64,000 nt of DNA, taken from the UHGV virus genome UHGV-0091736; one strand, 5' to 3'. The first letter of the stretch is position 1. Every line of letters begins with the position of its first letter. Positions 46,314 to 48,158 of the stretch are shown piece by piece. This DNA comes from a virus. A model generated the notes under the pieces. It was not told where the DNA came from and searched no databases. It worked only from the letters and a program-made list of their open reading frames with translations. The translations under genes were made by a program, and so were the position numbers.

Positions 46314-48158
46314 CTTTCAATTGTAAGGGCGCTATTGCCCCGCTCTCTATGAGCTTGTTTAAGTCACTATTAACTTAACTCTAACCACTCACTTTTTAAG
46401 TAGTTACAGGTAAGCGGGGCGGTCTTATCAGGAGTTAACCTTGCCGCCCCCTTATCCGTGATGTTTCATCTGGTATCTTTAATTAGTCGCTATAAATAAA
46501 GCCGACCTGATAGCGATGATCAATCATCACAATAAGGCAGTGCGTCCGACTCTAATTAGTTACGTTTATTGTAACCGTCGGCAATATCGTCTACTTTGCT
46601 TTCGCTCTCGCCTATCCTTTTGTATTAACTCTCAATCGCTAGTCATCGCCCACTACGGGATACTATTGCGAAAGAGTCATTAACCGTCTAATATTCCGAC
46701 GTTTTATATCTTTCAGCGAGTTTACTACATAAACCGACTATGTACTTTCATCATAAGACGAATCTCAAGCCGTTCACATCGTAAACGTTCACACTAAACC
46801 TTATTGTTAAATAGCAATTTGCCACTTTTTAACCGCTCCCCGCCGCCCTCAATTGGGCGTTAATTTGTCGGACTTGTCTACCCTGATTAACTTCTTTCAC
46901 TGTAGCGCCTTGTTAGCGATGACCGCCGCTACCCTTAACCGTGGGCGATTAGCTTAAGCCTTTGCGTGCACTCAGTGAATCCGTTTATCAGTGGTGACGT
47001 TTCCAGTAAGGGATTGCAAGACTGTTTCCTCTGATAGTTTAGAGAGCCTTACATCGTTTTATCTGGTACGCTTTCCGATGGTTATTATCATCAAGCATAT
47101 TCAACCGATATAGAAGAACGTTTAAATTGTTAAAGAGCGGTAAATCTATCAGCGTGTTTACTCACGCTATGCAACTGTTAGCCGTTGTCTCGCTTTTCAC
47201 TTAAGCGGTGATTTGCTTAGTGAGTGCTCATTATGAATCATGTTGTTTTAGCTGTCAACCACTTTTTTAATCTTTTTCGTCGTTCCCATTATCGGGAGGA
47301 TATACCAATCAGCTTTATTTGATTGGAGATTAAGCGGTGATGCTTAACTTATGATTCATATTGTTAAAGAGCGGTTACTACATTCACAGCTTAACACATC
47401 GTGTTAGCTTGTCAACTCTTTCTATCGTCTTCTTTTTCTCTCTCTCCCTCTGTCTCGCGTGAATCTATGCGAAAGGGCAAGACGATCAGTTTTTAAAGAG
47501 CGGGGATTTTTTAAGTCATCGCTGACTGAGTGCTCATTATGAATCAGGCTTTTTCCGGTGTCAATACTCTTTTTAAGAATATTTTCACTTTTTAGCCTGA
47601 TTTTTAAGGAGCGGTTGAAGTCTCTCTCTTCACGGGGTATTGCGTAGTTCCCAACGTTCTCTGCCACCGCGCTATAGGTAGTGGCTTAGTATCCGACAAT
47701 CAGACCTTCTTCACTCGGTGAAGCCCGGCCCCTCAATTTACTGTTAGTGAGGCGGTTACAGTGTACCTGCTACCGATTCCGTGGTGGCGTCTTACTGCTT
47801 GTTGCTTACTGCTTACTACGGGATTCATATTACTATACAGGAAAACCCTGTCAATACCCTTTTTTCAAATTATTTTTCATCTCACTGTTTTCTAAAGGAA
47901 TTTATTTTATTGTCAGTAGGACACCGGAAGGAATCAGGAGGTAAAAGAGCGGGAGCGCGTGATACATCACAGGAAACGGCTTGTAAAGCAGTAATAAGCG
48001 TCCTAAAACGCATCACAACGAGCTAAAAGGGAGTAAGGCATACAATCACCTTAGAAAATAGAAAAGCCTCTTAATGAGGCTTACAGGAAGGATTTAAAGC
48101 ATCAGATAGATTATGACCATAGGCATGACCACGGCACAATACAGGAGAAAGATTAAGC
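46314..48158. repeat. About 1.8-kb ORF-poor region with dispersed degenerate repeats
   Basis: No convincing ORF; five copies of T(T)AA(A/G)GAGCGG, three of TTATGA(A/T)TCA, two each of TTAAGCGGTGAT and GAGTGCTCATTATGAATCA. Confidence 0.5.

What the first reader, a model, noticed from the sequence alone, without database searches (positions are those of the whole stretch)
46314..48158. 1.8-kb ORF-poor region with dispersed degenerate repeats
No convincing ORF spans this region. It carries five copies of T(T)AA(A/G)GAGCGG at irregular spacing, three TTATGA(A/T)TCA, and two each of TTAAGCGGTGAT and GAGTGCTCATTATGAATCA, arranged like decayed copies of a roughly 45-nt unit. It lies just upstream of the first leftward gene. 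Candidates are an origin with iterons, a promoter array, a packaging or terminal-repeat-proximal region, or a long noncoding RNA.
Basis: seen in the sequence. Interest (0 to 1): 0.7.

Follow-up and report, generated by a model that had tools for sequence, protein, structure and literature searches.

The report
Phage early promoters, BoxA sites, structured leader RNA
The gene-free 1.8 kb is the control region of a phiEco32-like phage's main early operon: four strong host-type promoters, each followed by the BoxA signal that E. coli uses to keep ribosomal RNA transcription from stopping, feeding a conserved, intricately folded 830-base non-coding RNA that is not in Rfam 15 and not mentioned in any paper I could read.

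Summary
The window is a Kuravirus (phiEco32-like coliphage), and 46314-48158 is the ORF-free spacer between the gp124 and gp125 homologues, both on the minus strand.

The motif GAGTGCTCATTATGAATCA is the -10 region of two near-consensus sigma-70 promoters.

The layout is: terminator, then four [promoter then BoxA] modules, then an ~830-nt leader, then gp124. In 14 relatives I found 57 perfect BoxAs, all on the transcribed strand.

The leader is non-coding and more conserved than gp124 DNA in most comparisons. It folds at z = -6.5. Compensatory changes occur at 70 of 236 pairs, against 5-8 in slid controls. It has no Rfam match.

One inter-module cassette (X, 47615-47802) is a structured RNA otherwise found only in the early leaders of T7-like phages.

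Best reading: an rRNA-operon-like, Rho-resistant early transcription unit that makes a new large structured RNA of unknown function. The iteron-origin and DNA-end readings are not supported. The BoxA mechanism and the transcripts are inferred, not measured.

The parts
48064..48082 (-). Intrinsic terminator of the upstream mini-operon (gp128-gp125 homologues)
   Evidence: A 7-bp stem followed by a T-run. SU10 annotates a terminator at the homologous place, just after CDS121.
47941..47951 (-). Degenerate BoxA-like sequence (GCTCTTTTACC, 2 mismatches).
   Evidence: 79% match. It is not conserved in phiEco32 or SU10 (alignment A2).
47827..47854 (-). Promoter P3 (TTGACA-16-TAATAT) with an A-rich upstream element
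   Evidence: It is invariant in phiEco32 and SU10. It is not listed in the SU10 promoter table.
47615..47802 (-). Cassette X: a structured RNA element between P3 and its BoxA, acquired from, or shared with, T7-like phages
   Evidence: 82-90% identical to Kayfunavirus early leaders and 76% to Pectobacterium phage PPWS1. It is absent from all other Kuravirus records. In alignment A5, 95.2% of cells are paired and 14 of 30 pairs are compensatory, against 7.1+-1.7 in shuffles and 0-6 in slid controls.
47602..47612 (-). BoxA-1 (GCTCCTTAAAA, 1 mismatch; perfect in phiEco32 and SU10)
47536..47564 (-). Promoter P2 (TTGACA-17-CATAAT).
   Evidence: It corresponds to the SU10 early promoter at 73996.
47491..47501 (-). 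BoxA-2 (GCTCTTTAAAA), a perfect match to GYTCTTTAANA
47388..47415 (-). Promoter P1' (TTGACA-16-TAAGCT with TG, extended -10 type)
   Evidence: Read from the sequence. It corresponds to the SU10 early promoter at 73668, listed there with an alternative -10.
47362..47372 (-). BoxA-3 (GCTCTTTAACA), a perfect match
47230..47258 (-). Promoter P1 (TTGACA-17-CATAAT)
   Evidence: It corresponds to the SU10 early promoter at 73511.
47151..47168 (-). Hairpin 12 nt upstream of BoxA-4, in the position of the rrn boxB
   Evidence: Helix 1 of the consensus structure. Its closing pair takes the forms UA, CG, AU and GC.
47128..47138 (-). BoxA-4 (GCTCTTTAACA). With its flank, GCTCTTTAACAATTTA matches 16 consecutive nt of the E. 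coli rrnB BoxA region.
   Evidence: In all 14 relatives it lies 835-844 nt upstream of the end of the extracted spacer, which runs ~10 nt into gp124.
46305..47164 (-). Conserved structured non-coding leader RNA, ~830 nt: two multi-branched domains closed by long-range helices, then a 3' chain of hairpins
   Evidence: 84 stop codons and no codon periodicity in substitutions. More conserved than gp124 DNA in most pairwise comparisons. MFE -263.8 against -213.8+-7.7 kcal/mol, z = -6.5. 236 pairs, 99% of cells paired, 70 compensatory pairs against 32.6+-3.3 in shuffles and 5-8 in slid controls. The single-sequence MFE structure gives 63 of 264 compensatory pairs. No Rfam hit.
46805..46815 (-). BoxA look-alike (GCTATTTAACA, C4 changed to A) buried in a hairpin and helix of the leader; probably structural
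   Evidence: helices 17 and 18.
46310..46349 (-). 3' end of the leader: UAGAGAGC (46342-46349, complementary to BoxA-4) and the gp124 Shine-Dalgarno AAAGGUGA (46310-46317, whose GGUGA core and following bases, 46308-46314, are predicted to pair with AUUUACC just 5' of BoxA-4)
   Evidence: Predicted long-range helices at columns 30-36/874-880 and 37-44/838-845. The pairs are invariant, so covariation gives no support.
45405..46304 (-). First gene of the operon, the gp124 homologue (299 aa, unknown function)
   Evidence: phrog_13018.

Best explanation
The spacer is the promoter, antitermination and leader region of the main leftward early operon of a phiEco32-like phage. It is built like an E. 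coli rRNA operon.

Proposed sequence of events:
1. Host sigma-70 RNA polymerase starts at four tandem near-consensus promoters (P3, P2, P1', P1).
2. Within 16-215 nt of each start region the transcript carries an rrn-type BoxA (GCUCUUUAA[C/A]A).
3. NusB-NusE(S10) would bind BoxA and, with NusA, NusG and SuhB, convert the polymerase into the Rho-resistant, RNA-chaperoning antitermination complex known from rRNA operons and CRISPR arrays.
4. That complex can cross 0.85-1.5 kb of untranslated RNA and continue into the long early operon.
5. The untranslated stretch is not filler. Its last ~830 nt fold into a conserved multi-domain RNA. The region at and just 5' of BoxA-4 is predicted to pair with the 3' end of the leader, including the gp124 ribosome-binding site, which resembles an rRNA leader-trailer helix.
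6. Between the modules sit exchangeable cassettes. In this phage one of them (X) is a structured RNA shared with T7-like phages.

Shown here: the motifs, their strand and order, their conservation, the non-coding nature of the leader, and its conserved fold.
Inferred: promoter use in this particular phage, Nus-factor binding, Rho resistance, and any function of the folded RNA. My best guess for the RNA is a cis-acting stabiliser or translation control of gp124, or a trans-acting early RNA.
For: Identity of the region:
- The window is 92.5% identical to phiEco32 72796-74730, an unannotated spacer flanked by minus-strand genes.
- The SU10 paper places three sigma-70 early promoters in this spacer 'like phiEco32' and lists their sequences. 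They are my P2, P1' and P1.

BoxA:
- There are three perfect matches to the published gamma-proteobacterial consensus GYTCTTTAANA (PMC5725501) within 375 nt on the minus strand, against 0.53 expected in the whole window on both strands. Two further sites have one mismatch.
- In 14 Gordonclarkvirinae spacers there are 57 perfect BoxAs and none on the other strand. Almost every strong promoter my scan found is followed by a BoxA within about 50-190 nt; the window's P3 is the exception, because its BoxA-1 has one mismatch and lies behind the inserted X cassette. No strong promoter lies on the other strand.
- The extended consensus CCGCTCTTTAA(A/C)AAT matches rrnB TGCTCTTTAACAATTTATC. The window's BoxA-4 shares 16 consecutive nt with it.
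- BoxAs stay perfect where the sequence around them has been swapped.
- The other early promoter (49836..49809), 45 nt from its first gene, has no BoxA. That fits BoxA protecting untranslated RNA (PMC7665894).
- T7 and K1F-like phages also have a perfect BoxA after their early promoters.

Leader RNA: as listed under parts.
Against: - Nothing here is experimental. There are no transcript maps for this phage, no Nus binding data and no Rho assay.
- The leader RNA has more G than C (G 24%, C 18%) and is heavily paired, so it should be a poor Rho substrate. BoxA may therefore serve elongation speed or RNA folding rather than Rho resistance.
- BoxA-1 in this phage has a T-to-C change at consensus position 5.
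- I identified no rrn-type boxC and no lambda-type boxB/N pair.
- The terminal BoxA/SD helix is invariant and so lacks covariation support. A local hairpin (46342-46354) competes with part of it.
- The consensus structure was derived from the same alignment on which it was scored. The single-sequence control answers this only partly.
- The two primary phiEco32 papers (PMC2587145, PMC3275717) are not held in the library, so I cannot exclude an earlier description of BoxA there.
Confidence: 0.75

Rival explanations
1. Transcription-primed replication origin. The strong promoters and the folded leader would act like ColE1 RNA II or the T7 and T4 origin transcripts, forming an R-loop or primer that starts phage DNA replication.
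For: The leader is a long, conserved, structured, untranslated transcript made from strong promoters, upstream of the operon that holds the helicase and replication genes. No origin is annotated in the phiEco32 or SU10 records I fetched, and none is mentioned in the papers I could read.
Against: There is no AT-rich unwinding element and no DnaA box in the spacer. No strong antisense promoter exists for a copy-control RNA. The GC-skew turn lies at about 50 kb, where gene direction flips, not in the spacer. BoxA has no known role at origins.
Confidence: 0.1
2. Iteron-type origin or an array of DNA-binding sites. The repeated 10-14-mers would be bound as double-stranded DNA by a phage or host protein.
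For: The repeat is strongly over-represented and confined to this region.
Against: The repeat equals the BoxA RNA consensus and matches the rrnB BoxA flank. It has one orientation only in 57 of 57 cases. It is tied to promoters rather than to regular spacing; the gaps are 111-338 nt. There is no tandem array.
Confidence: 0.04
3. Nus-factor decoy. Four to six high-affinity BoxAs on abundant early RNA would titrate NusB/NusE/SuhB away from host rRNA operons as part of host shut-off. Antitermination of phage transcription would be secondary.
For: Several rrn-strength BoxAs sit behind near-consensus promoters. rrnG BoxA binds NusB:NusE about 10 times more tightly than lambda nut BoxA (PMC2800207).
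Against: One BoxA per promoter is what cis-acting loading predicts. T7-like phages make do with one BoxA. There is no evidence on RNA abundance.
Confidence: 0.06
4. BoxA as a repressor. As in the suhB leader, the Nus complex at BoxA-4 would block gp124 translation and provoke Rho termination, limiting early expression.
For: BoxA-mediated repression exists in E. coli (PMC5725501). BoxA-4 and its flank are predicted to pair with the gp124 SD region.
Against: In suhB the BoxA lies within about 50 nt of the start codon, whereas here it is about 825 nt away. Four BoxAs behind four promoters look like a way to maximise output, not limit it.
Confidence: 0.05

Closest known systems
E. coli rRNA operon leader (tandem P1/P2 promoters, boxB-boxA-boxC, rrn antitermination complex, leader-trailer helix)
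   Same: Both have tandem strong sigma-70 promoters. The BoxA is of the rrn sequence type, with up to 16-18 nt identical to rrnB. A hairpin lies just upstream of BoxA-4. A long structured untranslated RNA lies downstream. The BoxA-proximal 5' region is predicted to pair with the 3' end (PMC10250234).
   Different: There is one BoxA per promoter, four in all, instead of one shared site. I recognised no boxC. The downstream RNA has no similarity to rRNA or to any E. coli sequence and runs into protein-coding genes. This is an analogy, not homology.
Phage lambda nutL/nutR (BoxA + boxB + N protein)
   Same: It is a phage-borne BoxA on an early transcript that recruits host Nus factors for processive antitermination.
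   Different: The sequence here is the high-affinity rrn type (GCUCUUUAACAA), not the lambda type (CGCUCUUA). No boxB/N pair was identified. The phage is strictly lytic, and there are several copies.
T7 early region (A1-A3 promoters upstream of gene 0.3)
   Same: Both have a cluster of strong host-type early promoters at the start of the early operon followed by an untranslated leader. T7 carries a perfect BoxA, CGCTCTTTAACAA, at 813-823 between A3 and gene 0.3, and K1F-like phages have promoter, then X, then BoxA.
   Different: T7 has one BoxA and a ~175-nt leader. Here there are four BoxAs and an ~830-nt structured RNA.
BoxA upstream of CRISPR arrays (PMC7665894)
   Same: BoxA is placed ahead of a long untranslated transcript, where it counteracts Rho.
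   Different: That is a host immune locus with a single BoxA. The downstream RNA is a repeat-spacer array, not a single folded molecule.
Large structured bacterial and phage RNAs in Rfam (ROOL, GOLLD, OLE, HEARO, group I/II introns)
   Same: Similar size class (hundreds of nt), multi-domain fold with covariation, and presence in a phage genome.
   Different: No model in Rfam 15 matches, even at E of 10 or below. It is located in an mRNA leader. It is confined to Kuravirus-like coliphages.

Membership tests
BoxA (NusB/NusE-binding antitermination element) | RNA sequence matching the gamma-proteobacterial consensus GYTCTTTAANA on the transcribed strand | tested here: met
   Three perfect matches and two with one mismatch on the minus strand in 46805-47612, against 0.53 perfect matches expected per 64 kb.
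BoxA (NusB/NusE-binding antitermination element) | Lies downstream of a promoter in an untranslated part of the transcript | tested here: met
   Each of the four predicted promoters is followed by a BoxA 16-215 nt after its -10 element. The promoters themselves are predicted or taken from the literature, not mapped in this phage.
BoxA (NusB/NusE-binding antitermination element) | Conserved among relatives independently of the flanking sequence | tested here: met
   57 perfect copies in 14 spacers, all on the transcribed strand, retained next to swapped cassettes.
BoxA (NusB/NusE-binding antitermination element) | Binds NusB-NusE, recruits SuhB/NusA/NusG, and suppresses Rho termination | not testable with these tools
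   This needs ChIP, in vitro binding, or reporter assays with bicyclomycin.
rrn-type antiterminator (boxB-boxA-boxC) | A hairpin upstream of BoxA and a G/U-rich boxC downstream | tested here: inconclusive
   A covarying hairpin lies 12 nt upstream of BoxA-4 (helix 1). I saw no boxC-like UGUGUGGG when comparing with rrnB by eye.
Sigma-70 early promoter cluster | -35 and -10 hexamers close to TTGACA/TATAAT at 16-18 nt spacing, oriented toward the early genes | tested here: met
   Hexamer matches are 11/12, 11/12 and 10/12, plus one extended -10 promoter, all on the minus strand. Three are listed for SU10.
Iteron-type replication origin | Several direct repeats of ~17-22 bp near an AT-rich unwinding element and DnaA boxes | tested here: not met
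   The repeats are 11-14 nt, equal BoxA, and are spaced 111-338 nt apart. There is no DnaA box. The only AT-rich 40-mers are the promoter UP elements.
Terminal-repeat / packaging region | Lies at or next to the physical genome end | tested here: not met
   It is homologous to phiEco32 72796-74730 of 77554, about 2.8 kb from the end, with four genes in between.
Known RNA families (Rfam 15) | Score at or above a family's gathering threshold | tested here: not met
   No hit at gathering thresholds in the whole window. Only chance-level matches (E of 2 or more) in 46200-48200. No tRNA or tmRNA in the region.
Structured non-coding RNA (generic) | Non-coding, conserved, thermodynamically stable, with compensatory base-pair changes | tested here: met
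   for the leader. for cassette X.

The most novel reading that the evidence does not exclude
The ~830-nt leader would be a new class of large structured phage RNA that is manufactured like an rRNA: tandem strong promoters, BoxA and antitermination-complex loading, and 5'-3' closure by a leader-trailer-like helix. It would act as a functional RNA in its own right during host takeover, as a trans-acting RNA or RNP scaffold possibly released by processing. The slots between promoter and BoxA would hold mobile structured-RNA cassettes, such as X, that are exchanged between unrelated phage families.
Probability: 0.3. Interest if true: 0.85.

Novelty: new variant of a known kind. Interest (0 to 1): 0.72.

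Why it matters
- It gives a concrete, testable answer to how a lytic coliphage that depends on host RNA polymerase gets that polymerase through a long early operon. It would borrow the rRNA antitermination system through several rrn-strength BoxAs, without any identified N-like protein. A 2022 study of the related phage 7-11 states that an antitermination strategy 'remains to be defined'.
- It points to the same device, a consensus BoxA behind the early promoters, in T7 and K1F-like phages.
- It identifies two RNA elements with good covariation support and no Rfam family: an ~830-nt leader universal in Kuravirus-like phages, and a ~190-nt cassette shared across phage families. If the leader has a function of its own, it would be among the few large structured RNAs reported from E. 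coli phages, in a system where genetics is easy.
- On the practical side, annotators scatter spurious small ORFs over this spacer in several GenBank records.

Tried and rejected
- tRNA/tmRNA scan: only tRNA-Arg at 40340-40416, outside the region.
- Rfam at gathering and at permissive thresholds: nothing credible.
- Coding potential of the leader: rejected. It has 84 stops, only tiny non-ATG ORFs that are not conserved, and no 3-nt periodicity in substitutions.
- Tandem 45-nt unit: rejected.
- Iteron origin: rejected on DnaA boxes, AT-richness, strand bias and motif identity.
- Host origin of the leader or of X: no similarity in 5,426 E. coli genomes.
- Remote homologues of the leader: nhmmer against the phage 7-11 right end and against T7-like loci found only the BoxA itself. 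A metagenome scan with an invariant 21-mer gave 7 loci. The six long enough to compare are all 91-93% identical to sequences I already held.
- 7-11 right end: about 1.05 kb is non-coding upstream of gene 151, with no BoxA consensus.
- A single-sequence fold of X alone is not more stable than shuffles (z = +0.37). Its support comes from covariation only.
- Resemblance of the X core CCTCACTAA to T3/T7-type RNA polymerase promoters: considered and dropped. A Kuravirus is not known to encode a T7-like single-subunit polymerase (prior knowledge; I did not scan this genome), and the initiating GGG is missing. This was a comparison from memory only.
- Literature: no paper in the library contains both 'boxA' and 'phiEco32' or 'Kuravirus'. 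The two primary phiEco32 papers could not be read.
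Full report
**What the window is.** The region 46314-48158 matches 109-114 phage records by DNA. The best matches are phiEco32-like coliphages (Kuravirus, Gordonclarkvirinae). phiEco32 itself is 92.5% identical over 72796-74730. In phiEco32 and SU10 this stretch is an unannotated spacer between two minus-strand genes, gp124 and gp125. In the window these are 45405-46304 (-) and 48159-48524 (-). The spacer is therefore internal to leftward transcription. It lies about 2.8 kb from the phiEco32 right end, with four genes in between.

**Check of the observation.**
- No ORF above 81 aa exists on either strand, and none of 30 aa or more on the minus strand between 46314 and 47421.
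- TAARGAGCGG occurs four times in 64 kb, all in 47131-47614 (0.11 expected). The fifth copy is degenerate.
- TTATGAWTCA occurs three times, all in the region.
- The two longer repeats are real.
- There is no tandem array of a 45-nt unit.

**Reading the transcribed strand.** All neighbouring genes are on the minus strand, so I read the repeats as reverse complements.
- GAGTGCTCATTATGAATCA becomes ...TGATTCATAATGAGCAC. This is the -10 region of two TTGACA-17-CATAAT promoters (47564..47536 and 47258..47230). A third promoter, TTGACA-16-TAATAT, lies at 47854..47827.
- The SU10 genome paper states that, as in phiEco32, three sigma-70 early promoters lie in this spacer and a terminator follows the upstream gene. 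Its Table S2 gives the sequences. They are my P2, my P1, and a fourth promoter, P1' (TTGACA-16-TAAGCT preceded by TG, 47415..47388).
- The terminator is at 48082..48064.

**The main motif is BoxA.**
- TTGTTAAAGAGCGG becomes CCGCTCTTTAACAA. Baniulyte et al. derived GYTCTTTAANA as the BoxA consensus of gamma-proteobacteria (PMC5725501).
- The window has three perfect matches, at 47138-47128, 47372-47362 and 47501-47491, all on the minus strand. The expectation is 0.53 for the whole window on both strands, and no shuffle reaches the observed total of four.
- Two more sites have one mismatch, at 47612-47602 and 46815-46805.
- I fetched the E. coli rrnB leader. Its BoxA region reads TGCTCTTTAACAATTTATCAG. 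The window's BoxA-4, GCTCTTTAACAATTTA, is identical over 16 nt, and some relatives match over 18 nt.

**Order on the transcript.** Terminator, then P3, cassette X, BoxA-1, P2, BoxA-2, P1', BoxA-3, P1, a hairpin, BoxA-4, the ~830-nt leader, and finally the gp124 SD and AUG. That is four promoters and four BoxAs, one to one.

**Comparative test.**
- I collected the spacer from 14 phages of three genera: Kuravirus, Nieuwekanaalvirus and Suseptimavirus.
- Each has 3-6 perfect BoxAs, 57 in all. None lies on the other strand, and there are no strong opposite-strand promoters.
- Almost every strong promoter my scan found is followed by a BoxA within about 50-190 nt. The window's P3 is the exception: its BoxA-1 has one mismatch and lies behind the inserted X cassette.
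- The last BoxA always lies 835-844 nt upstream of the end of the extracted spacer, which runs ~10 nt into gp124.
- The sequence between modules is mosaic. phiEco32 and SU10 carry a different ~100 nt where this phage has X. They also have an extra ~185 nt after BoxA-2 that this phage lacks. The BoxAs themselves stay intact throughout.
- The other early promoter (49836..49809) sits 45 nt from its first gene and has no BoxA.
- This contrast is what BoxA's known role predicts. It protects long untranslated RNAs, namely rRNA and CRISPR arrays, from Rho (PMC7665894).
- T7 has a perfect BoxA at 813-823 between promoter A3 and gene 0.3. K1F-like phages have one after their early promoter.

**The leader is a structured RNA.**
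- Across the 8 phages first compared, the 46314-47120 segment is more conserved than gp124 DNA in most comparisons. Against Bas88 it is 86% versus 74%, and against SU7 it is 90% versus 76%.
- It is not coding. It has 84 stops in three frames. Variable sites fall 90/108/83 by phase, against 75/49/209 in gp124.
- The window sequence folds to -263.8 kcal/mol, against -213.8+-7.7 for shuffles, z = -6.5.
- On a 14-sequence alignment (A4) RNAalifold predicts 236 pairs, and 99.0% of cells are standard pairs. Seventy pairs show changes on both sides, against 32.6+-3.3 in column shuffles (0 of 500) and 5-8 when partners are slid by 1-3 columns.
- RNAalifold uses covariation, so I repeated the count with the minimum-free-energy structure of the window sequence alone. 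That gave 264 pairs, 95.4% paired and 63 compensatory, against 30.7+-3.4 in shuffles and 5-8 in slid controls.
- Some helices vary at every pair without a single broken cell, for example columns 463-468/573-578.
- The fold has two multi-branched domains closed by long-range helices (columns 49-352 and 373-657) and a 3' run of hairpins.
- The BoxA look-alike at 46815-46805 is buried in a hairpin and a helix and is probably structural.
- No Rfam family matches. Nothing similar exists in E. coli genomes, in the phage 7-11 right end, or in T7-like phages. A metagenome scan found only close relatives.

**A possible leader-trailer closure.** Both predictions pair AUUUACC, just 5' of BoxA-4, with GGUGAAU at 46308-46314, which takes in the GGUGA core of the gp124 Shine-Dalgarno sequence. 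The single-sequence fold also pairs BoxA-4 (GCUCUUUA) with UAGAGAGC at 46349-46342. These pairs never vary, so covariation is silent on them, and a local hairpin competes with part of the helix. The topology recalls the rRNA leader-trailer helix next to boxA (PMC10250234). It suggests that BoxA occupancy could be linked to closure of the RNA and to gp124 translation. This is inference only.

**Cassette X.**
- Window 47591-47804 is the ~10% of the spacer that other Kuraviruses lack.
- Its only relatives are T7-like phages. Kayfunavirus members are ASO2B and Mt1B1_P3 (90%), GA2A and TH20 (84%) and the Salmonella ST/KE phages (82%). Pectobacterium PPWS1 is at 76%, and Shigella phage Buco matches in part.
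- Wherever the flanks are held and a promoter scan is informative, X sits between an early sigma-70 promoter and the early genes. In the E. coli and Salmonella Kayfunaviruses a perfect BoxA follows it.
- The junctions fall at a shared AAGCAGTAAG near the transcription start and close to the BoxA.
- Among all loci I hold, X occurs in no Kuravirus other than this contig.
- Seven sequences support a fold: 95.2% paired, 14 of 30 pairs compensatory against 7.1+-1.7 in shuffles (1 of 500) and 0-6 in slid controls.
- Its single-sequence stability is unremarkable. Its function is unknown.

**How it most likely works.** The mechanism is set out under Best explanation. The steps shown are sequence identity, order, strand, conservation and fold. 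The inferred steps are promoter use in this phage, Nus-factor loading, Rho resistance, and what the folded RNA does.

**Against the simple 'needed against Rho' idea.** The leader has more G than C and is heavily paired, so it is a poor Rho substrate. The benefit of BoxA may instead be fast elongation, protection of the promoter-proximal and inter-module RNA, or chaperoning of long-range folding.

**Rivals.** A transcription-primed origin cannot be excluded, but the region lacks the usual origin marks. Iterons, a terminal or packaging site, and hidden genes are not supported.

**Novelty.**
- The promoters are known from the literature.
- I found no paper that links BoxA to phiEco32 or to Kuravirus. 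A 2022 paper on the related phage 7-11 calls the antitermination strategy undefined.
- The two primary phiEco32 papers were not readable, so earlier mention is possible.
- The leader RNA and X are not in Rfam 15.
- I rate the whole as a new variant of a known kind. It is rrn/nut-type antitermination in a new, multiplied arrangement, feeding a new RNA family.

Noticed in passing
L016 (phage T7, NC_001604) 813-823: T7 carries a perfect consensus BoxA (CGCTCTTTAACAATCTGG) between early promoter A3 (750) and gene 0.3 (925). K1F-like phages have the same sequence after their early promoter. I did not check whether this is already described.
   Followed up: partly
L001 (phiEco32) and L002 (SU10), alignment A2 columns 380-560 and 685-867: The slots between promoter and BoxA modules are mosaic. 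phiEco32 and SU10 have a different ~100 nt where this phage has X. They also have an extra ~185-nt cassette after BoxA-2 that this phage lacks.
   Followed up: partly
L015 3829-4029 (SU7_114); L025 1069-1269; L027 1067-1267: Spacers of SU7, PAS59 and MLP3 carry an annotated 66-aa ORF inside one of the upstream cassettes. Some slots may therefore hold small genes rather than RNA. I did not test it for coding signal.
   Followed up: no
window 47953-48013 (-): Just downstream of the intrinsic terminator there is a C-rich, G-poor stretch on the transcript (C minus G up to 0.19 in 78-nt windows). It could be a Rho loading site that backs up termination of the upstream mini-operon.
   Followed up: no
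window 47791-47817: A short 7-nt repeat (CAGTAAG on the minus strand, 3.9 copies) sits at the predicted start of the P3 transcript. The same AAGCAGTAAG begins X in T7-like phages and may be the recombination joint.
   Followed up: partly
L030 (Salmonella phage 7-11) 4365-5417: The distant relative 7-11 also has ~1.05 kb without genes upstream of its first early gene (151) at the right end. It has no BoxA consensus and no similarity to the Kuravirus leader.
   Followed up: partly
window 40340-40416 (-): tRNA-Arg (anticodon TCT), the only tRNA in the window.
   Followed up: no
window 48159-48524 (-): The small gene just upstream of the spacer (122 aa) is labelled 'terminase' in many records and in PHROGs (phrog_13168). 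It sits in an early mini-operon far from the structural genes, so the label looks doubtful.
   Followed up: no
window ~49800-51100: Gene direction and GC skew flip near 50 kb. By colinearity with phiEco32, the physical genome end would fall near 51.0 kb. The window therefore runs across the ends of a permuted or circularised assembly (contig IMGVR_UViG_3300045988_017452, 76,613 bp).
   Followed up: partly
L024 (101114UKE3) and L029 (pEC-N1203-2Af.1) spacers: Some GenBank records tile this non-coding spacer with 8-10 tiny 'hypothetical protein' ORFs on both strands. Given the non-coding evidence, these are probably annotation artefacts.
   Followed up: no
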